Shown here piece after piece: positions 341 to 11,126 of a DNA stretch of 11,126 bases. Under the pieces are notes generated by a model. The model worked only from the letters and a program-made list of their open reading frames with translations. It did not search any database and was not told where the DNA came from. Both the position numbers and the translations under genes were made by a program. The stretch's first letter is position 1. Each line of letters opens with the position of its first letter. This DNA comes from a virus. The stretch is taken from the UHGV virus genome UHGV-0334114, one strand, 5' to 3'.

Positions 341-589
341 ATGGCAAGACTTATTCTGCTCACTGAGTGGGCAAAAGAGGAATTCAGTGAACCGGTCCCT
401 ACTCCGAGTACGTTAAGTAAATACGCTAAAGCCGGAATGATATTTCCTCTCCCCAAAAAAGTTGGAAGACGCTGGCGAGTGGATCCGCAAGCTCGCTTTG
501 TCGGAATGGTAAACAAGCCGGAGGTGATCGCCACAGATCACCCTGCTTTGAAGAGGATACTGGAAGATGGCGCGCCCGCGAAAATATAA
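341..589 (+). CDS. xis: excisionase / recombination directionality factor (Xis-like)
   Basis: 82-aa ORF immediately upstream of int, overlapping it by 23 bp (567-589) as xis/int do in lambda. The basic motif IFPLPKKVGRRWRV resembles lambda Xis (IFPPPVKDGREY, from memory). No obvious Shine-Dalgarno, so the start is uncertain. Confidence 0.6.
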   Translation: MARLILLTEWAKEEFSEPVPTPSTLSKYAKAGMIFPLPKKVGRRWRVDPQARFVGMVNKPEVIATDHPALKRILEDGAPAKI

Positions 590-1697
590 AACCGATGTTC
601 CGGGATTATCTCCGTATTTTGACAAAAGAAATAACAAAGTTTACTGGCGTTACAGGCATCCCATAACAGGCAAAAATCACGGTCTCGGCAGTATTGACCA
701 GAAACTGGCAGAAACTATTGCAGCAGAAGCGAACAGCCGTCTTGCCCGGCAGCAAATGGAACAAATGCTCAGTCTGCAGGAGAAAATTATTAGTGATACC
801 GGCGGTTCATCAACCGTTACCATTTTTCTGAATAATTACAGAAAAATTCAACAGGAAAGATATGAAAACGGCGAGATCAAACTCAACACGCTGAAACAGA
901 AAGCGGCCCCTCTCAGGGTATTTGATGAACGTTTTGGCACCAGACCGTTAGATGCCATAACCGTAAAAGATGTGGTATCAGTACTGGAAGAGTACAAGGC
1001 CAGAGGACATAACAGAATGGGACAAATTTTCAGGAAAGTACTGATCGATGTTTTCCGGGAAGCTCAGCAAACGGGCGATGTCCCGCCAGGCTTTAACCCT
1101 GCAGAATCGGCAAAAAAACCGCAGGTGCGGATATCAAGACAGCGACTGACTTTTGATGAGTGGATGATGATTTATAACGCAGCGGAAAAGGATGGTTACT
1201 TTTTACAGCGCGGTATGCTGCTGGCACTGATGACAGGCCAGCGCCTTTCAGATATTTGCAAAATGCAATTTTCGGATATCCGGGATGGTTATCTTCATGT
1301 CGAACAGCAAAAAACAGGAACCCGGATTGCCATCCCTCTGGCTCTGCGTTGCGATAAATTAAATCTCACCCTGGATGATGTGGTGTCATCCTGCCGCGAT
1401 TGCGTTCTTAGTCCGTGGCTATTGCACCACCATCACGCGAAAGGGACAGCTAAGCGCGGCGGGATGGTTAAGCCAGCAACATTAACCGTTGCATTTAAAA
1501 AAGCCCGGGATTCTGTGGATTACAACTGGCGTGCTAATGGCACCCCACCCTCTTTCCATGAGCAGAGATCTTTATCAGAGCGATTGTTCAGAGAGCAGGG
1601 GGTTGATACCAAAATTTTGCTAGGCCATTCGAATCAAAAAATGACCGATATTTACAACGACGCACGCGGTAAGGAATGGAAAAAACTGGTCATTTGA
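567..1697 (+). CDS. int: tyrosine site-specific integrase, lambda Int family
   Basis: 376 aa. The C-terminal catalytic domain aligns by eye to lambda Int: TGQRLSD (Arg), EQQKTG (Lys), FHEQRSLSERL (His/Arg), LLGHSNQKMTDIY (His and Tyr nucleophile). AGAGGA Shine-Dalgarno 9 nt upstream of the ATG at 567. N-terminal arm-binding region is diverged from lambda Int. Confidence 0.95.
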   Translation: MARPRKYKTDVPGLSPYFDKRNNKVYWRYRHPITGKNHGLGSIDQKLAETIAAEANSRLARQQMEQMLSLQEKIISDTGGSSTVTIFLNNYRKIQQERYENGEIKLNTLKQKAAPLRVFDERFGTRPLDAITVKDVVSVLEEYKARGHNRMGQIFRKVLIDVFREAQQTGDVPPGFNPAESAKKPQVRISRQRLTFDEWMMIYNAAEKDGYFLQRGMLLALMTGQRLSDICKMQFSDIRDGYLHVEQQKTGTRIAIPLALRCDKLNLTLDDVVSSCRDCVLSPWLLHHHHAKGTAKRGGMVKPATLTVAFKKARDSVDYNWRANGTPPSFHEQRSLSERLFREQGVDTKILLGHSNQKMTDIYNDARGKEWKKLVI

Positions 1698-1708
1698 TGA
1701 CCAGTTTT
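1680..1708. terminator. bidirectional intrinsic terminator candidate (12-bp perfect inverted repeat overlapping the int stop codon)
   Basis: AAAACTGGTCAT (1682-1693) and ATGACCAGTTTT (1697-1708) are perfect inverted repeats around a 3-nt loop. The stem is flanked by A6 (1680-1685) and T4 (1705-1708), giving a U4 tail on the + transcript (int) and a U6 tail on the - transcript (ompW-like segment). Confidence 0.5.
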
Positions 1709-1738
1709 GCAGAGGGGTTTTGCAGAGGTTTTGCAGAG
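1705..1738 (+). repeat. three direct repeats of TTTTGCAGAG; candidate integrase arm-type binding sites (P' arm)
   Basis: TTTTGCAGAG occurs at 1705-1714, 1718-1727 and 1729-1738, immediately 3' of int. A fourth near-copy AGTTTTGCAGAAGG lies at 1979-1992 on the other side of the proposed core. Placement mirrors lambda P'1-P'3 versus P-arm sites. Confidence 0.45.
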
Positions 1739-1742
1739 AAAA

Positions 1743-1868
1743 TTAAAAACGATATCCTGCGGAGAACATAAACACCCACGGATCCAGTCGTACCGAGTCT
1801 TTTACGGTAGTAACACCAGATTTGTACTTAGCCGTGGTATCGATATCCATGTACCAGACCGGTAGGTT
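1743..1868 (-). pseudogene. ompW: phage-borne 3'-terminal segment of ompW (41 codons plus stop); probable attP core and replacement 3' end of the integration target gene
   Basis: The - strand frame reads NLPVWYMDIDTTAKYKSGVTTVKDSVRLDPWVFMFSAGYRF then stop, preceded by an in-frame TGA at 1869-1871. It matches the OmpW C-terminus as I recall it (...VWYMDIDTTANYKLGGAQQHDSVRLDPWVFMFSAGYRF). No OmpW-like coding continues upstream in any frame, so this is a fragment, not a gene. Confidence 0.6.
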
Positions 1869-2170
1869 TCAAAAAACACAATAACCAATTGTATTTGAAG
1901 CAAAAAACAAGACTTTGAGATGTTTTTTTGTACCTTTTTTTATGTTTTTAACTGTCTGATTTTATTGAAATCTTTTTTAGTTTTGCAGAAGGAATTTTTT
2001 ACTTGATTGTAACTTTTTCGTTTTTTTGGGGCTAATTGACGCGCAATGCTGGGCGGGGAGCGCACAGCCAAAAAAACCGAAATTGACCGCTAATTACTGC
2101 CAATCATCATCGCTCTGATTGAGCGTAAATCATTCAGGTTTTTCAGTTCTTCCTTCTGCTCTCGCTGACG

Positions 2171-2341
2171 TCAATAAATCCCATCATTGCGATCAACCTC
2201 ATCCTTAACCATTGATGCGAGCAGTTCTTCCAGTTTCTGCGCTGACAGCTTTACCTGGTGATCTTCAGCATCTTCCCGGGCTATTGTGGTTCGCGCAGTG
2301 GCTGATTTTGCTGACATCACCACAGGGGGCAGACGGACCAT
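2171..2341 (-). CDS. hypothetical small protein (56 aa), sole ORF of the b-region equivalent
   Basis: ATG at 2341-2339 is preceded by GGAGG about 10 nt upstream. Product is MVRLPPVVMSAKSATARTTIAREDAEDHQVKLSAQKLEELLASMVKDEVDRNDGIY, predicted helical and acidic at the C-terminus. The listed 93-aa version starts at a TTG 4 bp after the tfa stop and has an odd hydrophobic N-terminus. No family recognised. Confidence 0.3.
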   Translation of the reverse strand: MVRLPPVVMSAKSATARTTIAREDAEDHQVKLSAQKLEELLASMVKDEVDRNDGIY

Positions 2342-2455
2342 TGAACCATGGCCTCCGGAACAAATAAGGGCAAAAATAACAACCACTATCGAAAGCTCAC
2401 AAACTAACCGCAGCACGTTCCTGCATACGACGTGTCTGCGGCATAATCCCAATGA

Positions 2456-3040
2456 TTACTCCCTGACAGGGTTCGTAGGCCACTCAATATCAGGTGCAGT
2501 TGATGTATCAACACGGTTCAGCAACACCCGATACTTTTTCCAGGCTTCCAGCAATGAGGTTTCTTCCTCCGTTGCAATTTCCAGATCTGCAGCATCCTGA
2601 AGCGGCGCAATATGCTCACTGGCTACCTGCATCAGGTTGTTTTTTGTTTCTTCCGCCTCCCGGATCCGGAACAGTTTTTCTGCTTCCGTATCCTTCACCC
2701 AGGCTGTGCCGTTCCACTTCTGAAACTCCCCTTCCGGCGATAACCAGGTAACATTTTCCGGTAACGGACCGAGTTCAGAAATAAATAACTCGTCCCCTGA
2801 CGCTACGTCATAAACCGTTTTCCCCCGATGGTCTTCAACGAGATGCCACGATGCCTCATCACTGTTGAAAACAGCCACAAAGCCAGCAGGAATATCTGGT
2901 GGTGCAATATCGGTACTGTTTGCTGGCAGACCTGTATGAGGCGGAATATATGCGTCACCTTCACCAATAAATTCATTAGTTCCGGCCAGCAGATTATAAA
3001 TTTTTATGGTCCGTGCTTGTTCACTCATTCTGAATGCCAT
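2456..3040 (-). CDS. tfa: tail fibre assembly protein (lambda Tfa-like)
   Basis: 194 aa, the same length as lambda Tfa and near-identical to it as I recall ([50 protein letters not shown]...). Its ATG overlaps the stf stop (TAATG). Confidence 0.9.
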
Positions 3041-6000
3041 TATGCAAGCCTCACAATATAGTTAAATGCGATGTTTTTGACGGTGTTTTCCGCGTTACCC
3101 GCAGCGTTAACGGTGATGGTGTGTCCATGTGAACCAATCGCAACGGAGTGCGTATGCGCACCAATACCTACAGTATGTGCATGTGCGCCAGAACTTGCTG
3201 CAGTACCAGACAGCGAGTGGGTATGAGCACCTGCTGACTGTGTCTGAATACGTTGATAATACGATCTATAGGAAGAAGTCTCCGGGCTTACTTGATACTG
3301 TGAATTCTGGACATAAGTGAACCCACCGCCATCATAAAATGCTAACGCAGAACCGCCGCCTCCTGGCCAACGAATACCATTACCATGAGTATGAACACCG
3401 GCAGACCCCGTAGAGCCACTCAGACTGTGCGTATGCGCCCCGGTGTTATTCGTGGATTTAGTGCCGTAATCAAACGACGATGTGGTTTTCGTCCCCAAAT
3501 CCGTACTGGATGCGCTGGCGCTGTGGGTGTGCGATTTTATGCCGTCCTGTTCCTGAGACAATACGGCCCGGCCACTGGCGGGTTTGCCCTTAATCGTCCA
3601 GCCACGCATATCAGGGATCACGCCTGACGGATAAGCCGCTGCAAGTTTCGGGTAGGCAGATTTGTTAAAAGTCTGCCCCTGCATCAGGGCATAACCAGAC
3701 GGAACGGTATCTGATGGCCACGGGATTGGTGCGCCAACTGGGTAGCTTTCTGGTGGAAGATTTTTCGAGGTATAAACTTCTGCCCAGTCTTCCTCAAAAC
3801 CATAACCGTCTCTTGAAGAACGGTAGAACAGACCACGATTTCTGTAATGCGCCTTCATCTGCAGGGTCCGGCAACTTCCGACTCCGGTATAGAAGTTAAC
3901 CAGAATATAGCTGTCGCCAGAGCGGGCGACATTGTAAGCGCCTGATTCGGCATTCCAGGGAACGGCTCCATTCGAATCCGCATAAGCCCCCGTCGAACGT
4001 CGGGCAAATGCACCAATATTTTCCGGCGTGAGGTTAATATCCGCCGAGCCATCAAACTTAACACCGTTAATTTTTGGGGCTGCCGCAAGTTTCGTCGCGG
4101 TATCGGCGTTCCCCTTCAGTGCCCCGGTGATCCCATCAGTAACAGACAACGGACCTGAAATAGTCCCTCCAGTCGTTGGCAGCGCTCCAATATCTGATGG
4201 TGTAGGTTTCTGATGTGAGCTATACATCGTATAAACAACACCACCGGTAACGCTGGAAGGCTTACTCGCTGAATATGTTGGCGAGGTATAAATAGAAACT
4301 GACGCATTTGCAGTACAATCCCAATGGATATTTACACTCGTCGCATAATTGCCAATCTCAACGTAAATATCATATGTATCGCCGGATGTGTTGATCCAGG
4401 CGAAATTCGTTAATCCGACGGCTGTACGCTTCCACAAAGCCCCGGTAATTCCTTTGGGGTTTCCATTGCCTGCTCGTAGAACCAGTTCTGAAATGCCTGC
4501 CTGATGTGGGGAACCGACGTTGTAACCAGCGCCACCAATCAATGCGATGTAAACGATGGAACTCGCTTGTGGCATGGTAACCGTTGCCAGTTTGAACCAC
4601 CCAGCCCCGCCAGAGAAAGAGATCGTTACTGAATTTAAAGTGCCAATATCTTTCGGTGTTAATGTTATATCCGCAGTCAGTGCTTTCCCGTTAACTTTTC
4701 GGTTAGATGGTACCCTGCCATTCGCATTGTCATTCGCTGCTTTAACTGCCTTCGGTGTCGCGGCAAGCGTTTCAGATGTGATGTTGGTCGCACTGCTGAG
4801 CTGTACTATCCCCTTTTTCGTCGTACTTGCATCCTCAAGCGCCACGGCGGATGCAATATCCTCTGCCCGTTTTGCCGCTGTCTCGGCGCGCGTTGCCGCG
4901 GATTCCGCCGTACTTTTGCTCTGTGCTGCCGCCGTCGCACTGCCAGCTGCCTCTGTCGCCTTCGCGGATGCTGTCGTGGCGCTGCCCTTCGCTGCTGACG
5001 CCTGTCTGGTCGCCTCATCTTTTGAAGCAGACGCCGATGATGCCGATGACGCCGCCGAACTGGCGGACGATGCGGCAGCCGTTTTTGAGGATTCTGCGCT
5101 GGTCTCCGACGCTTTCGCGTTCGTCTCCGATGTCTTCGCTGCGGAAGCAGACCTCGCTGCTGCACTGGCCTGTTCAGTGGCTTCGCCAGCCTTCGTTGTG
5201 GCTGTTGAAGCGGACGATGCGGCGCTTTCTGCCGATTTTCCGGCGGCGCTAGCACTGGCTGAGGCCTGCCCGGCACTTGTTGACGCTGCACTGGCAGACG
5301 ACGCAGCCGCTGTTTTTGAGCCTGCTGCTGCGGAGGCACTCTGTGCTGCTGCCGTTTCAGAGGACTTAGCGTTTGTCTCAGACGTCTTTGCCGCCTTCGC
5401 GGAATTTCCTGCCGCCGTTGCCGAGGAAGCGGCATTACTGGCGCTCGAGGCTGCGCTCGTTTCTGATAATTTTGCCGCCTCTTTTGAAGCCGACGCATCT
5501 CTGGCTGAGGTGGCTGCTTCTGACGCTTTCGTGGTCGCGGTGGATGCAGAAGTGGCAGCTGATTGTTGTGACGCTGCCGCATTCGTTTCTGACGTTTTCG
5601 CCGCACCGGCACTGGTGGCCGCCGCGCTTTTTGAGGACTCTGCAGCGGCAGCACTTTTTGATGCTTCAGTGGCCTTTGCTGATGCCGTTCCTGCGCTGGA
5701 AGACGCAGACTGAGCCGACGAAGCGGCCTGTCCGGCTGACGTGCTGGCTGCTCGTGCTGAGCCTGCAGCATCAGTCGCACGGGTTGCCGCCTCACGGGCT
5801 GATGTGCTGGCATCGCTGGCTGATTTCTTCGCGGCTGCCGTGTTCTGTGCCACCGCGGACGCGTTACGCGCCACCTCTTCCACCATCAGTTCAAAGCGGC
5901 GCAGTGCCTCAGGACGGGCATCATCCTCCGTCATGGCACCGAGAAAATCATTCAGCGTACCGGGTCGGGAATCTTCATACACGGTGATGGTCCCGGCATG

Positions 6001-6210
6001 TGACGGCGGGAATCCTTCCACCAACAGAATAACGCTGTACTGACCGTACTCAACGTCCATGCTGTAACGCCCGGCTTCATCCGGATTTTCTGAGGCCAGC
6101 GTGTTCACCACCACCGTGGTGCTGTTACGTTTTGCTTTCAGCTGGATTGTGCAGTTCTGTACCGGTTTTCCTGTGCCGTCTTTCAGTACACCTGAAATCT
6201 TTACTGCCAT
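3040..6210 (-). CDS. stf: side tail fibre protein (Stf; lambda Stf / Rac StfR-like, mosaic)
   Basis: Preferred start is the ATG at 6210 ([26 protein letters not shown]..., as in lambda Stf), with GGGGTGA just upstream; the listed ORF starts at a GTG at 6216. Has a long Ala/Ser/Thr-rich repeat tract, repeated GAHTHSLSG/HxH motifs, and a conserved C-terminus [22 protein letters not shown]. Confidence 0.9.
4820..5860 (-). repeat. in-frame low-complexity Ala/Ser/Thr-rich repeat tract inside stf
   Basis: Reiterated peptide units (AKTSETNA three times, STATTKA.EAT twice, SAASSAS...), with matching nucleotide-level reiteration. This composition generates the long spurious ORFs in other frames (4556-5713 +, 4806-5813 -, 5373-5987 +). 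Confidence 0.7.
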
Positions 6211-6274: not shown

Positions 6275-6874
6275 TCAGAATTTATAACCGACACCAACGA
6301 TGAAACTGTTGGTACGCCAGTCACCGCTGCCGGAGCCTTCATAAGCGACATCAACGGCCACGGATTCTGTCGGGTTAAACTGCACGCCAGCCCCCCACGC
6401 CAGAGACGTGTTGCTGTGGCGATCGTCATCACTTCCGGTCAGCACATCGTGCGTTTTCCCCGTATTGTCGGTCACCTGCAGATAATCCCCGGAGAAAGTC
6501 GACACACGGCTGTAAGCCACACCCGCCATCGCATACGCGCTGAACCATTCATTCACGCGCACAGACGGCCCCGCCATCACGCTGAACCAGCGGTTACGCA
6601 CGGAATCTTCATGCCAGCGGGTATCGCTGTAATGCGTTTTTTGCTCATCTTCAGCGTTGGCATAACTGAATGACGTAATCAGCCCCAGCGTGTCCGTAAA
6701 CTCATAACGGTATTTCACGTTAATCCCGTTCAGATTATCGCTGCCGGGAGCGTTCGTACGGGCATGAAGATACCCTGCGCTCAGTGTGGCCTGCTGCTCA
6801 GACGCCCATGCAGGCGCACCGGATACGGCCAGACAGATGGCTGCGGACAAAATGGCTGCACAAACTTTACGCAT
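6275..6874 (-). CDS. lom: outer-membrane protein Lom (Ail/Lom/PagC family beta-barrel), moron
   Basis: 199 aa with an N-terminal signal peptide ([24 protein letters not shown]). The C-terminus [26 protein letters not shown] matches lambda Lom. GAGG Shine-Dalgarno upstream. Sits between J and stf as in lambda. Confidence 0.9.
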
Positions 6875-6941: not shown

Positions 6942-9900
6942 TCAGCTAATCGTGATGCCTGTAGTGGCTTTCTTCATCACCACAACCAGCAAATCGCTGA
7001 TACTTGCTGTGGGATACCAGTTATTTACCAGCCATGCTGACACCGAAAACTCCAGTGTCATGTGACCGTGACCGGCAGGCATATCAATAACGCCACTGTA
7101 AATCAGCGTATTATCCAGCGCGGTACGGTTATAAATTTCAGCACCGTTTTTCCGCACTATCAGACGGCATGAGGAGTAAATATCAGTATGCTCTTTCTCA
7201 TGTTTAGCGCCGCTGAATGCCACCGCCGGAATAACAATCTGCCGGTCAAACGGCTGATCGTCATAAACCCTGACGGTAATGGTTCCTGATGGCCACCGCT
7301 CCGGTGCACGGGAGTCCCGGGGGAAAGCTTTGCCCACTGTTTTAACGAGATCGCCTTCAATCTGGTTCGCGGACAATTTTCCCAGAACCCGACAGTTCTC
7401 GTTAATCGTGACGTTGTTGAGCGTCCCGGAGTTCGCATTCACGTTACCGCTGATATCGGCATTTTTCGCCGTCAGCCGCCCGTCCGGTGTCAGGGAAAAT
7501 GCCGGAGGATTACCGCCGCTGGTAATGGTGGGGGCCGTCAGGCGTTTCAGGAACACTTCATTCATGAATATCTGATCGCCCTGACCAACAAACATCGGCT
7601 TTGTGTTGCCATTCGCAGGATTAATCATCGCAATCCTGTCTGCTGCCAGCAGCACCTGACTCTGCATGCCGTCAGGGGTGTTCTCAATACCGGCACCGAT
7701 ACCCGCAATATAAAGGCGTCCGTCCTGCATCTGCTGCAGCTTCACTGCCCACATGCTGTTCAGGTTATTATTTGTATCAACCTGAACCTTCTGTATCTGC
7801 TGGATCGCTGCACTCTGGTCTTCCAGTTTCTTATTGACGGTCTGTGTTATTTCATTGCTGACATCCGTTATGGACGTCCTGATTTCAGTCAGGTCAGGCG
7901 CAAGCTGACCGTTATCAATCTGCGTCCACAGCTCCTGAGCCAGATGGGTTTTCCCTATCTCGCCTTTGAAAAAATCCAGATAGCCTGATGCATCATCACT
8001 CGGCTGACCGACAGCCTCCACGAATGCCGATTTGCCAACGGTGTTCACACTGCGAACGTAAAAATAATAATCATGGCCCGGTTTGATATTGATACTGGCG
8101 GCTATCCAGTACAGTGCCGTACCAAGATAACGCGCGCTGGTTTCAACCTGCCTGATATCCGCAATCCGTTTTTCCGAGAACCAGAACTCAAACTGTACCG
8201 TCGGATCATAAACCGCAAGATGCGGCGTGGCGGTTATCTGAAAATAGCCCGGCGTCAGCTCAATCCGCGACGGTGCTGCCGGTGCGGCAATCCGGAATGA
8301 TACCGACGCCGGATCACCCTGCTGCCCCCAGGCATTTACCGCCCTGACTGTCAGCCTGTAGTTCCCCAGCGCCAGCTGCCTGAAGCGGTATGTGGTTTCC
8401 GTCGTCCGGGCCGTGCTGACCAGCCGCTCACTGCCGTCATCCGCTGTTACGGTCAGACGGAGCAGGAAGCTCACGCCCTTCACCACCTTCGGCGTGTCCC
8501 AGCAGGCCAGCACCTGATATTCCCCGCTGTCTGCGGTGACTTCGGCAGTCAGGTGCTGCACCGCTGGCGGCGTGACACCATTCACCGTGCCGCTCTGGTC
8601 GCCGTCAAAGTGCGCCCCGTTATCCACGATGGCTTCTTTTTCCGGTACATGCTGCACGGCGGTGATGGCATACGTGCCGTCGTCGTTCTCACGGATACTC
8701 ACGCAGCGGAACAGGCGCTGGCGCAGCGTCGGCAGCTTCAGCCCCCACACGCTGTATCCGGCAACGCCGTCAGGAACACGGCTCACTTTTACCTTCACGC
8801 CGTCGGTGACGGACTGGACCTCCACGCTGACCGGATTGCCACTTCCGTCAACCAGGCTTATCAGCGTGGTACCGGAGGATGGCAGCGTGATTTCACGGTC
8901 GAGCGTCAGCGTCCGGGTCTGGCTGTTCACCGCCAGCACGCGCCCGCCGATGCTGATACCCGCATAGTCATCATCGCAGATTTCAATGACATCCCCCGGT
9001 ACATGGCGAAGCCCTTCCGCACCCACGCTGAAGTCCACGGTCTGCGTTTCCAGCAGTTCCGTTTTAATCAGCCACAGCCCGGCGCGGTGTGCCTGCCCCC
9101 GGCTGGTACAGCCAAAGGCATCCATCTTCGTGACGTTACGACCGTAACGGAGAATGGCCTGCGTATCTTCAACAAGCTCTGTCGCCGTCTCCCAGCCGTT
9201 ATCCGGGTCAATCCAGTTCACCTCAACGGCATTATGGCGGTCCTTCAGGGCGCTGAAGCTGTAGCGGAACGGCGCGCCATCATCCGGCATCACCACATTA
9301 CTGCGGTTATAGGTCCACACCTTATCCGACGGTCGGTCCTGCACGAACGTCAGCGTCTGCCCGTTCCATACCGGCATACAGCGCATCGCCGAGCAGAAAT
9401 CACTGAGAACATCCCACGCCTTACGCTGTGTGGTCAGCCAGGCATTACAGGTGATGCGCGGCTCCGTGCCACCAAAGCCATCCGGCACCGACTGGTCGCA
9501 ATTCTGGCCGATGACATACAGCGCCCATTTGTCCACATCCGCCGCACCGAGACGCTTCCCCATGCCGTAGCGCGGATGGGTCAGCATATCCCACAGACAC
9601 CAGGCCATGTTGTTGCTGTATGCCGGTTTAAACGTCCCGTCCCAGATACCGTTGTATTGCCGCGTCTGCGGGTTATAGTTCGACGGCACCTGCAGAATGC
9701 GCCCGCGAAGATGATAATTACGGCTCACCTGCTGGCTGCCGAACTGCTCCGAATCCACCTGCACGCCGACCAGTGCCGTGTTCGGGTAGCCCTGTTTCAC
9801 ATCGATGATTTCGGTGTATGACGACCAGAGCGTTTTGTTCTGCAGCTGGTCTGTGGTGCTGTCCGGCGTCATCCTGCGCATCCGTATATTGAACGGGCGC

Positions 9901-10421
9901 GGCGGCAGGTTACCCACCACCACCGAGGCCAGATACTGCGAGGTGGTTTTGCCCTTAATGGTGATGTCTTTTTCCGTCACCCAGCCACCATTACGTTGTA
10001 TCTGAACCAGCAGGCGAACTTCCGACGGATTCCTGTCCCCCTTTGAGGTGGTTTCCACCAGTGCCTGCACACCGAAGGTAAAACGCAGTCGGTCAATGTT
10101 TGCCGACGTGATGGTCCGGGTGATCGGCGTGTCGTATTTCACTTCCGTACCCAGTACCGTCTCGGAACCTGATGATTCAAATCCCTCCGGCGGTGTCTGT
10201 TCCTGCTCACCTGCCCGGAACACCACCGTGACACCAGAGATGTTAGTATTCCCCTCACTGTCCAGCACCGGTGTACTGTTCAGCAGCACGCTTTTTAATC
10301 CATCCACCGGACCTTCAACCGGCCCTTCGCTGATGGCATCGATCACACTCAGCAGCTGCGTGGACTTCAGGTTGTCCCTCGCTTCGCGCGGGGTATGCCC
10401 CTTACTGCTTCCTTTACCCAT
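6942..10421 (-). CDS. J: tail tip attachment / host specificity protein J
   Basis: 1159 aa. The N-terminus [34 protein letters not shown] and most of the protein match lambda J as I recall it. GAGGA Shine-Dalgarno directly upstream of the ATG. A central segment and the C-terminal ~150 aa (receptor-binding region) are clearly diverged from lambda J. Confidence 0.95.
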
Positions 10422-10487: not shown

Positions 10488-10826
10488 TTATTTACATGCA
10501 TTAACACTATCAGCAAAAATTTTTGGCGTTAATGCTGGTACACGTTCATAAAGAGTAAAACTACTGCCATTTCCTGCTTTTTTGATATCAAGCACAACAT
10601 CATATCCCCCCATAGCCTGTGGAACTAAAAGGCTTACCCCATTCTCAATAGGAAGGGATGTTATAGGTGTTCCATTACCAGCCCATTGTCTGGATATGCA
10701 GCCTGACAATTCATCAATATTTTTTAATGAATTACCTTCCATTACAGGTTTTCCGGATTTTACGTAATCCAAAGACTTACATCCTGTTAAGGCAATAATC
10801 GTGCAGAATAAAATCGTTTTGTTCAT
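10488..10826 (-). CDS. small secreted lipoprotein of unknown function (moron inserted between tail genes I and J)
   Basis: Preferred start is the ATG at 10826, giving MNKTILFCTIIALTGC..., a classic lipoprotein signal peptide with lipobox LTGC; the listed ORF starts 4 codons earlier at a TTG. Mature part is about 95 aa with two further Cys. The gene and its flanks are markedly AT-rich compared with I and J. No good Shine-Dalgarno seen. Confidence 0.7.
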   Translation of the reverse strand: MNKTILFCTIIALTGCKSLDYVKSGKPVMEGNSLKNIDELSGCISRQWAGNGTPITSLPIENGVSLLVPQAMGGYDVVLDIKKAGNGSSFTLYERVPALTPKIFADSVNACK

Positions 10827-10898
10827 ATAGCTAACCAATAGAATAATTATCAGTGTTCGATATAAATATTAAATCAGTTAGAACATGAGTAAATAATA

Positions 10899-11126
10899 TT
10901 ACCGCCCAATTACCACAACCTGACCACCATCCCCTTCATCTGCCGTGCTGATCTCCTGAGATGCCACACGTGACCCCACGCGCATTTCACCGTACAGAAC
11001 AGGCAGGACATTGCCCTGGGCAACCATGTTATCCAGTGAGGAGAAATAGGTGTTCTGTTTGCCGTTATCCGTTGTCTGTGTACGGGGAGTTCTGGCTTTC
11101 GGTGCCAGCATCTGCGCCACACCACC
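10899..11126 (-). CDS. I: tail assembly protein I (C-terminal part; gene starts beyond window end)
   Basis: The frame is open to the window edge (GGVAQMLAPKARTPRTQTTDNGKQNTYFSSLDNMVAQGNVLPVLYGEMRVGSRVASQEISTADEGDGGQVVVIGR then stop), matching the C-terminus of lambda gpI as I recall it. The listed start at 11120 is an internal GTG. Confidence 0.85.
   Translation of the reverse strand, partial: GGVAQMLAPKARTPRTQTTDNGKQNTYFSSLDNMVAQGNVLPVLYGEMRVGSRVASQEISTADEGDGGQVVVIGR

What the first reader, a model, noticed from the sequence alone, without database searches (positions are those of the whole stretch)
3040..6210. Long mosaic side tail fibre with an expandable Ala/Ser/Thr repeat shaft and HxH-motif tip
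The 1056-aa Stf is longer than the 774-aa lambda Stf I remember and resembles Rac StfR in its repeat shaft and distal part. The tract at 4820-5860 contains nucleotide-level reiterations that could mediate recombinational length variation. The C-terminal GAHTHSLSG/HxH repeats resemble the metal-coordinating needle of T4 gp37-type fibre tips. Together with the altered J, the phage carries two independently mosaic adhesins.
Basis: partly seen in the sequence, partly recalled or inferred. Interest (0 to 1): 0.4.

Follow-up and report, generated by a model that had tools for sequence, protein, structure and literature searches.

The report
Known mosaic lambdoid side tail fibre
This is an intact but ordinary prophage side tail fibre gene of E. 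coli, already catalogued in hundreds of genomes, built from known modules: a long alanine-rich coiled-coil rod and a T4-type iron-needle receptor tip. Its repeat tract is a protein heptad pattern, not a DNA repeat that drives rapid length change.

Summary
Window 3040-6210 (minus strand) encodes an intact 1056-aa Stf, lying between J/lom and tfa. The exact protein is RefSeq WP_021541869.1, found on 144 public contigs. 495 of 5426 complete E. coli genomes carry a place that covers at least 80% of the gene.

The Ala/Ser/Thr tract is real. It is 49 unbroken heptads (xSAxxAx, aa 115-457), the proximal coiled-coil rod described for Ur-lambda Stf. It is exactly 15 heptads longer than lambda's rod and the same length as Rac StfR's.

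The "nucleotide reiterations" are only the degenerate echo of the heptads:
- The longest exact repeat is 14 nt.
- Tandem Repeats Finder finds no array.
- Repeats are no stronger than in synonymous-codon shuffles (p=0.6).

Across Stf alleles the rod length does vary in heptad quanta, through several independent in-register indels. Among the 120 nearest protein clusters only one has a shaft indel. Their variation lies in about 40-aa fibre motifs and in a head cassette (aa 930-993) bounded by HxH motifs.

The tip (aa 821-1056) is a true homologue of the T4 gp37 tip (2XGF, E 2e-81), with all seven HxH sites aligned, but its receptor-contacting head differs.

J also has a divergent C-terminus. Verdict: real, correctly recognised, mosaic, already known. 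Low interest.

The parts
3040..6210 (-). stf coding sequence, 1056 aa (stop codon 3040-3042); identical to RefSeq WP_021541869.1
5929..6210 (-). N-terminal collar domain (aa 1-94), the part that docks the fibre on the tail tip
   Evidence: Matches the Ur-lambda StfN chain 9e7m_Ta at E 2e-51. Pfam PF08400 covers aa 1-134. Role taken from PMC12617516.
4840..5868 (-). Proximal rod: 49 unbroken heptads xSAxxAx (aa 115-457). Ala fills heptad positions 3 and 6, the a/d core positions.
   Evidence: Heptad autocorrelation and register. A single-chain AF2 model gives one continuous helix over aa 98-471, mean pLDDT 71. The equivalent lambda region is described as the proximal coiled coil.
4987..5301 (-). 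The 105 aa (15 heptads, aa 304-408) that lambda Stf lacks and Rac StfR shares
4651..4839 (-). Conserved fibre motif unit [10 protein letters not shown]...AATPKAVK at the end of the rod and the hinge (aa 458-520). The similarity to StfR ends at nt 1487 (aa 496). Some close relatives carry an extra 44-aa copy here.
   Evidence: (Mu-type fibre S 8ju3/5yvq)
4228..4641 (-). Beta-sandwich knob module (aa ~524-661). It is absent from lambda Stf and not matched in Rac StfR. It is shared at about 91% with phi458, CMS-2020a and Cyrano, and at 49-72% with other phages including Yersinia, Salmonella and some large (about 170-kb) Escherichia phages.
   Evidence: The AF2 model has pLDDT 70-88 in this domain only. 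Foldseek top hits are WceF 6TGF and tailspike 6E1R; treat this as a lead only.
4021..4173 (-). Fibre repeat unit TATKLxxAxxIxGVxFDGSAxINL (aa 680-730). 25 of the 120 nearest clusters carry a second 40-aa copy after aa 703.
3751..4020 (-). Domain related to tail fibre protein S of PDB entry 8ju3 (aa 731-820)
   Evidence: 8ju3_A, stretch E 2e-20, aa 731-827
3043..3750 (-). T4 gp37-type receptor-binding tip: collar, needle and head (aa 821-1056)
   Evidence: 2XGF at E 1.9e-81. Pfam Collar PF07484 covers aa 826-873.
3232..3423 (-). Variable head cassette (aa 930-993), bounded by GAHTHS (aa 924-929) and GAHTHSLSG (aa 994-1002). It aligns to the T4 head region without meaningful similarity.
   Evidence: This variant is present in 720 of 5426 complete E. 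coli genomes and in only 2 phage records.
3121..3531 (-). Span holding the seven HxH motifs (aa 894, 926, 940, 996, 1010, 1019, 1028; window 3523-3531, 3427-3435, 3385-3393, 3217-3225, 3175-3183, 3148-3156, 3121-3129)
   Evidence: The T4 needle holds seven coordinated iron atoms (PMC6957217).
2456..3040 (-). tfa, the tail fibre assembly chaperone (194 aa). Its start overlaps the stf stop. It is 94% identical to lambda Tfa and 96% to TfaR.

Best explanation
The region encodes an intact lambdoid side tail fibre (Stf) with its Tfa chaperone. By homology with Ur-lambda Stf it is a homotrimeric accessory adhesin. It would make the first, reversible contact with the outer membrane and speed adsorption before the central fibre J engages its own receptor.

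The modules, in order:
- A collar domain (aa 1-94) that clamps the fibre to the tail tip.
- A short linker.
- An Ala-core alpha-helical coiled-coil rod of 49 heptads. Fifteen of these heptads (about 15-16 nm) are extra relative to lambda, and the rod has the same length as in Rac StfR.
- A hinge carrying the conserved [17 protein letters not shown] motif.
- A beta-sandwich knob.
- A fibre repeat.
- A domain like tail fibre protein S of PDB entry 8ju3.
- A T4 gp37-type collar-needle-head tip. Its seven HxH motifs would each give six histidines per trimer to bind an iron ion. Its head (aa ~943-993) carries the receptor specificity.

The gene is a mosaic assembled by recombination at conserved fibre motifs and HxH motifs. 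The Ala/Ser/Thr 'repeat' is the heptad pattern of the rod. Rod length has changed in evolution by in-register heptad indels. It is not a rapidly variable DNA repeat tract.

Shown here: the ORF, the module homologies, the heptad register, the alignment of the HxH motifs, the mosaic boundaries and the distribution of length variants.

Inferred: trimer state, iron binding, the adsorption role, the receptor, and the recombination mechanism.
For: - Gene order I / small ORF / J / lom / stf / tfa, with family matches for each.
- Exact protein in RefSeq on 144 contigs. 495 complete genomes hold a place covering at least 80% of the gene, at 95.6-100% identity among those listed.
- N-terminal domain matches the Ur-lambda StfN cryo-EM chain (E 2e-51) and the tip matches 2XGF (E 1.9e-81).
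- The published Ur-lambda Stf architecture is collar / linker / proximal coiled coil 102-393 / hinge / distal part with receptor-binding domain, and its receptor is OmpC (PMC12617516).
- Heptad periodicity z 7-11 at all multiples of 7. Ala fills 47 of 48 and 34 of 48 heptads at the two core positions.
- AF2 gives a continuous helix over aa 98-471.
- The difference from lambda is exactly 105 aa.
- 27 of 39 Stf representatives differ in spacer length by exact multiples of 7 (binomial p 1e-14). Counting distinct lengths only, 7 of 16 do so (p 0.004). The gaps of 105, 112, 70, 49, 168, 56, 28, 21 and 7 aa lie at different positions.
- Piecewise matches to 48 PHROG families, mostly annotated as tail fibre proteins, and module-wise matches to different phage groups.
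- The head cassette, bounded by HxH motifs, is exchanged in about 28% of the nearest clusters.
- The T4 needle binds seven irons through these histidines (PMC6957217).
Against: - No experiment shows that this prophage makes virions or that the fibre is assembled.
- In the window, and in the one other genome that carries the whole stretch (SCU-125), int/xis sit next to the tail fibre end. This is an unusual order for a prophage.
- Trimer state and metal binding rest on homology only.
- The head has no characterised relative, so the receptor is unknown.
- The AF2 model of aa 497-830 is poor (mean pLDDT 50), so the knob fold is tentative.
Confidence: 0.88

Rival explanations
1. The shaft is a contingency-type repeat tract. 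Nucleotide repeats recombine or slip often, giving phage populations with mixed fibre lengths.
For: - A 21-nt periodicity and degenerate 45-nt copies exist.
- Alleles do differ by whole heptads.
- The lambda junction shows a few bases of microhomology.
Against: - Longest exact repeat is 14 nt.
- Tandem Repeats Finder finds no array in the shaft.
- Nucleotide self-similarity equals the synonymous-shuffle expectation (p 0.6).
- No higher-order protein duplication beyond the heptad pattern (p 0.07).
- Among the 120 nearest clusters only one, seen on a single contig, has a shaft indel (4 aa). The other length differences lie elsewhere.
Confidence: 0.05
2. The Ala/Ser/Thr tract is a disordered low-complexity spacer, or a beta-structured fibre shaft, rather than a coiled coil.
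For: - Low-complexity composition (70-82% A+S+T).
- Ala-only cores are weak drivers of coiled-coil assembly (general knowledge).
- The single-chain AF2 confidence is only moderate (pLDDT 55-90).
Against: - An unbroken heptad register over 49 repeats, with nearly invariant Ala at positions spaced 3 and 4 residues apart.
- Length differences between alleles keep the heptad phase.
- AF2 predicts one helix of 374 residues.
- The collinear lambda region is modelled and imaged as a trimeric coiled-coil rod (PMC12617516).
Confidence: 0.04
3. The gene is a relic in a defective prophage and no longer functions as an adhesin, as is assumed for the cryptic prophage Rac.
For: - The context has remnants: a partial tfa, a DUF4376 pseudogene and an ompW fragment. 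The int/xis position is unusual.
- Only about 11 kb is visible, so the completeness of the prophage is unknown.
Against: - J, lom, stf and tfa are all intact long ORFs.
- The upstream tail genes in identical prophages are annotated without pseudogene flags.
- The 3.2-kb ORF is kept open in hundreds of genomes, at 95.6-100% identity among those listed.
Confidence: 0.1

Closest known systems
Rac prophage StfR (E. coli K-12 b1372, 1120 aa)
   Same: - N-terminal domain and the whole 49-heptad shaft are collinear without gaps: 94.8% nt over nt 1-1487, 85% aa over aa 1-579.
- The distal part (aa 685-1056) is 77% identical.
- Seven HxH motifs.
- TfaR is 96% identical to this tfa.
   Different: - No nucleotide match over nt 1488-2145 (aa ~497-715), and the protein match lapses over aa ~580-684, which includes most of the knob. 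StfR is 243 nt longer over this stretch.
- The head differs in sequence and length: the spacing between the third and fourth HxH motifs is 56 residues here and 39 in StfR.
- The window has no pin invertase gene next to tfa, whereas pinR follows tfaR in Rac.
Ur-lambda Stf (774 aa; orf-401 + orf-314 in lambda PaPa)
   Same: - Same gene position and the same collar domain (chain 9e7m).
- Same coiled-coil rod type, collinear over aa 1-303 and 409-495.
- gp37-type tip about 64-69% identical.
- Tfa 94% identical.
   Different: - The rod here is exactly 15 heptads (105 aa) longer.
- The knob and Mu S-like modules add about 177 aa in the distal half.
- Lambda has eight HxH motifs and a different head.
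- Lambda's receptor is OmpC. The receptor here is unknown.
T4 gp37 receptor-binding tip (PDB 2XGF) and the T4/lambda receptor-binding protein family (PMC9659904)
   Same: - Collar and needle align over aa 821-1056 with all seven HxH motifs in register. The last 50 residues are nearly identical.
- A gp38/Tfa-type chaperone gene lies immediately downstream.
   Different: - The head segment that holds the T4 residues contacting OmpC and LPS (about 933-955) has no meaningful similarity here. The span between the flanking HxH motifs is about 18 residues longer.
- The rest of the protein is unrelated to gp37's shaft.
Tail fibre protein S / S' of PDB entries 8ju3 and 5yvq (Mu-type, from memory)
   Same: The motif [10 protein letters not shown]...AATPKAVK (aa 443-505) and the domain at aa 731-827 match 8ju3 (stretch E values 9e-09 and 2e-20).
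   Different: The N-terminus, rod, knob and tip all differ. Only two cassettes are shared.

Membership tests
Lambdoid side tail fibre Stf (PF08400 family) | N-terminal 'prophage tail fibre N-terminal' collar domain | tested here: met
   PF08400 at E 1.4e-71 over its full length, aa 1-134. Chain 9e7m_Ta at E 2e-51.
Lambdoid side tail fibre Stf (PF08400 family) | Gene lies after J and lom and directly before a tfa chaperone gene | tested here: met
   ORF order and Pfam matches for J, Ail_Lom and Caudo_TAP.
Lambdoid side tail fibre Stf (PF08400 family) | Proximal coiled-coil rod following the collar | tested here: met
   49 heptads. Helix predicted over aa 98-471. Collinear with the lambda rod.
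Lambdoid side tail fibre Stf (PF08400 family) | Assembles as trimers on the tail tip and speeds adsorption | not testable with these tools
   Needs virions, electron microscopy and adsorption assays.
T4 gp37-type receptor-binding tip | Sequence homology to the solved collar-needle structure | tested here: met
   2XGF at E 1.9e-81, aa 821-1056 against chain residues 27-242.
T4 gp37-type receptor-binding tip | Seven HxH motifs in register along the needle | tested here: met
   All seven align with those of T4. The T4 needle holds seven irons.
T4 gp37-type receptor-binding tip | Iron ions bound by the histidines | not testable with these tools
   Needs metal analysis or a structure of the purified tip.
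T4 gp37-type receptor-binding tip | Head domain homologous to T4's, so that the OmpC/LPS specificity could be transferred | tested here: not met
   aa ~943-993 aligns with gaps and almost no identity, and the spacing of the flanking HxH motifs is longer. No characterised phage shares this head.
T4 gp37-type receptor-binding tip | gp38/Tfa-type chaperone encoded immediately downstream | tested here: met
   PF02413 at E 1.9e-44. 94% identical to lambda Tfa.
Repeat-driven length-variable (contingency-type) gene | Tandem nucleotide repeats similar enough for slippage or homologous recombination | tested here: not met
   Tandem Repeats Finder reports nothing in the shaft beyond one 25-nt tract of a 9-nt unit (5030-5054). 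Longest exact repeat is 14 nt. Self-similarity is not above the synonymous shuffle.
Repeat-driven length-variable (contingency-type) gene | Repeat-number differences among otherwise near-identical alleles | tested here: not met
   1 of 120 nearest clusters has a shaft indel, and it is 4 aa, not a heptad multiple.

The most novel reading that the evidence does not exclude
Rod length in Stf fibres may be a selected 'reach' trait, quantised in heptads. This allele and Rac StfR are in the longest class seen, a 349-aa spacer against 25-300 aa in other representatives. Length may be tuned to the thickness of the host's O-antigen or capsule layer, and the added knob may be an extra glycan-binding module. 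Rod length, knob and the head cassette bounded by HxH motifs would then be three independently exchangeable host-range controls.
Probability: 0.2. Interest if true: 0.35.

Novelty: already known. Interest (0 to 1): 0.15.

Why it matters
The practical value is limited. The locus is a clean natural example of the modular plan of lambdoid side fibres. Its junctions fall at conserved motifs that could guide host-range engineering: the [17 protein letters not shown] motif, the TATKL...FDGSA.INL unit and the HxH motifs flanking the head. The heptad-quantised rod length polymorphism is a tidy observation that could be tested against host surface type across thousands of E. coli prophages. Nothing here changes current understanding of tail fibres.

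Tried and rejected
- Tandem Repeats Finder at a low score threshold found only a 9-nt x 2.8 array.
- The repeat finder gave only short, 60-94% identical families.
- A test for higher-order protein duplications in the shaft, against shuffles within heptad columns, was not significant (p 0.07).
- The junction of the 315-nt difference from lambda shows only scattered microhomology. The direction of the event (insertion or deletion) cannot be told.
- AF2 on aa 497-830 with a 33-sequence alignment gave a poor model (mean pLDDT 50). Only the knob is usable. The Foldseek hits to WceF and a tailspike are therefore a lead, not a classification.
- A literature search for 'His boxes' found no held paper using the term. 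The link to the work of Tetart and Krisch on motif-bounded adhesin swaps in T-even phages rests on my memory.
- None of the papers returned for '8ju3' looked, from title and abstract, like a description of that structure, and none was opened.
- No tRNA gene in the window.
- I considered a hidden gene on the opposite strand of the shaft (385-aa ORF at 4556-5713). I rejected it as a by-product of GCN-rich periodic codons; no database search was run on it.
Full report
**What is there**

The minus strand of the window carries a lambdoid tail-tip operon:
- a partial gene I (10899-11120);
- a small ORF (10488-10838);
- J (6942-10421);
- lom (6275-6874);
- a long ORF (3040-6210; ATG start, 1056 aa);
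- tfa (2456-3040), whose start overlaps the long ORF's stop.

Pfam gives the expected families. The long ORF matches PF08400 'prophage tail fibre N-terminal' over aa 1-134 (E 1.4e-71), the Collar domain PF07484 at aa 826-873, and the phage fibre repeat. tfa matches Caudo_TAP, and J and Lom match their own families.

**How common it is**

- The exact protein is RefSeq WP_021541869.1, 'prophage tail fiber N-terminal domain-containing protein'. It is recorded on 144 contigs.
- Seven complete E. coli genomes carry the gene at 100% identity. In all, 495 of 5426 hold a place covering at least 80% of it, and the best of these are collinear at 95.6-95.9%.
- No record in the phage collection covers 80% of it.
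- It is therefore a catalogued prophage allele, not a new one.

**The Ala/Ser/Thr tract**

Composition is 70-82% A+S+T over aa ~115-457. Residue autocorrelation shows z = 7.4-10.7 at every multiple of 7 up to 119, and nothing else rises above z 1.8.

Written in register, the tract is 49 unbroken heptads xSAxxAx. Ser fills position 2 in 37 of 48 heptads. Ala fills position 3 in 34 of 48 and position 6 in 47 of 48. These two Ala positions have the a/d spacing of a coiled coil with an alanine core.

A single-chain AF2 model gives one continuous helix over aa 98-471 (mean pLDDT 71). The helix breaks exactly at the GIVQLSSAT motif.

The collinear part of Ur-lambda Stf has been described from cryo-EM, cryo-ET and AlphaFold3. 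Its plan is collar 1-91, linker, proximal coiled coil 102-393, hinge, and a distal part with the receptor-binding domain (PMC12617516). The 'repeat shaft' is therefore the known proximal rod.

**Are there DNA repeats?**

- Tandem Repeats Finder reports only a 9-nt x 2.8 tract.
- The repeat finder reports a 45-nt family at 60-78% identity, spaced in multiples of 21 nt.
- The longest exact direct repeat in the gene is 14 nt.
- I compared the best ungapped self-diagonal with sequences that encode the same protein but have synonymous codons reshuffled. The observed score was 29; the null was 30.3 +/- 4.4, and 60% of shuffles reached it.
- At protein level, higher-order duplication beyond the heptad pattern is not significant against shuffles within heptad columns (p 0.07).

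The nucleotide reiterations are what any gene for this heptad protein would show. They are short compared with what homologous recombination normally needs (general knowledge).

**Does the rod length vary?**

Over evolutionary time it does.
- Against lambda, the alignment is collinear for aa 1-303 and 409-495, with a single gap of exactly 105 aa (15 heptads). Only scattered microhomology marks the junction.
- Against Rac stfR, the first 1487 nt align without a gap at 94.8%, so the rod has the same length.
- I scanned 1.84 billion representative proteins with the N-terminal domain. In 39 representatives that have both anchors, I measured the spacer between that domain and the GIVQLSS motif. It ranges from 25 to 349 aa, with 17 distinct lengths. 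27 of 39 differ from this allele by an exact multiple of 7 (binomial p 1e-14). Counting distinct lengths only, 7 of 16 do so (p 0.004). This allele is in the longest class.
- Gaps of 105, 112, 70, 49, 168, 56, 28, 21 and 7 aa lie at different places. Several independent in-register events must have occurred.

On a short time scale it does not.
- Among the 120 nearest protein clusters, only one (a single contig) has a shaft indel, and that is 4 aa.
- Their length classes come instead from other parts. There is an extra 40-aa copy of the TATKL...FDGSA.INL unit after aa 703 (25 clusters) and an extra 44-aa copy of the [17 protein letters not shown] unit after aa ~478 (3 clusters). Other classes have indels in the tip head, a re-patterned stretch around aa 736-812 (2 clusters), or a 14-aa deletion in the N-terminal domain (1 cluster).

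**The tip**

aa 821-1056 match the solved T4 gp37 tip 2XGF at E 1.9e-81, and the last 50 residues are nearly identical. There are seven HxH motifs, at aa 894, 926, 940, 996, 1010, 1019 and 1028. All seven align with the T4 motifs. In T4 these histidines coordinate seven iron atoms along the needle (PMC6957217).

The segment between the third and fourth motifs corresponds to the T4 head. That head carries the residues contacting OmpC and LPS (T939, V941, G943, Y949, A955). Here it has no meaningful similarity to T4. The motif spacing is 56 residues here, 39 in StfR and 48 in lambda.

Among the 120 nearest clusters, identity to this allele drops to about 0.72 exactly between aa 930 and 993. On both sides of this stretch, in the GAHTHS and GAHTHSLSG motifs, it is 0.98-1.0. 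This is a cassette exchanged between conserved motifs. It agrees with what I recall of motif-bounded adhesin swaps in T-even phages (Tetart and Krisch; from memory, not verified here).

This head variant occurs in 720 of 5426 complete E. coli genomes. In the phage collection it occurs in only two uncharacterised, unannotated records. Its receptor is therefore unknown.

The relation of lambda Stf/Tfa to T4 gp37/gp38 is long established, and a family of more than 200 T4/lambda-type receptor-binding proteins has been described (PMC9659904).

**The middle and the mosaic**

- The nucleotide match to StfR ends at nt 1487 (aa 496), just after AATPKAVK, and resumes at nt 2146 (aa 716), inside the TATKL unit.
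- The intervening module (aa ~497-730) is about 91% identical to phi458 and to the large (about 108-kb) phages CMS-2020a and Cyrano. It is 49-72% identical to Yersinia, Salmonella and some large (about 170-kb) Escherichia phages.
- aa 731-827 match tail fibre protein S of PDB entry 8ju3.
- The whole protein hits 48 PHROG families piecewise, mostly annotated as tail fibre proteins.
- An AF2 model of aa 497-830 was poor overall (pLDDT 50). It gave a beta-sandwich with pLDDT 70-88 for aa ~524-661, whose best Foldseek matches are domains of WceF (6TGF) and an Acinetobacter phage tailspike (6E1R). I treat this only as a hint of a carbohydrate-related knob.

**J**

J is 94-100% identical to lambda J up to about aa 800. 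Identity then falls to 38-63% over aa 801-950 and to 32-54% over aa 1001-1159.

**Mechanism and verdict**

The best-supported reading is an ordinary, intact side tail fibre. It would work as in Ur-lambda: four trimers clamp to the tail tip by the collar domain. They reach out on an Ala-core coiled-coil rod, here about 15-16 nm longer than lambda's (inferred from about 0.148 nm rise per residue). They then bind an outer-membrane receptor reversibly through a gp37-type tip that Tfa helps to fold.

Diversity arises by exchange of modules at conserved motifs and by occasional in-register heptad indels. It does not arise from an unstable DNA repeat.

All of these features are already described for this family, and the exact allele is already in the databases. 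Interest is low.

Noticed in passing
window 10488-10838 (- strand): A 116-aa ORF lies between I and J in a low-GC stretch (0.39-0.46, against 0.55-0.64 in J). Its N-terminus looks like a lipoprotein signal (MNKTILFCTIIALTGC). It has no Pfam match, matches PHROG 914 of unknown function, and is annotated hypothetical (WP_001332187.1). It may be an inserted accessory gene ('moron'), perhaps an exclusion lipoprotein.
   Followed up: partly
window 6942-7500 and 7570-8020 (- strand; J aa ~1000-1159 and ~800-950): The C-terminal receptor-binding part of J is only 32-54% identical to lambda J, while aa 1-800 are 94-100% identical. The central fibre probably does not use LamB in the way lambda does.
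   Followed up: partly
window 341-2456: xis (341-589) and int (567-1697) sit on the plus strand, followed by a 126-nt ompW 3' fragment (about 1743-1868) and a DUF4376 remnant (about 2090-2359). This places int, the attachment site and the tail fibre end in the vegetative phage order on a chromosome. Strain SCU-125 shows the same order. It suggests tandem prophages at ompW or a rearrangement.
   Followed up: partly
window ~2406-2621: Relatives (B2.3, SCU-125) carry about 1 kb here that includes a class I SAM-dependent methyltransferase gene, between the tfa 3' end and a duplicate copy of it. The window lacks this cassette, as if it had been lost (or gained elsewhere) by recombination between the two tfa 3' copies.
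   Followed up: partly
window 4556-5713 (+ strand) and 4806-5813 (- strand, other frame): Long ORFs of 385 and 335 aa overlap the shaft on the opposite strand and in another frame. They are most likely by-products of the GCN-rich periodic codons. Lambda's old annotation has a similar antisense 'orf206b' over its stf.
   Followed up: no
window 6275-6874 (- strand): Lom is only 43% identical to lambda Lom but 82-90% identical to the fragments of Rac LomR. The lom-stf-tfa block as a whole is therefore Rac-like rather than lambda-like.
   Followed up: no
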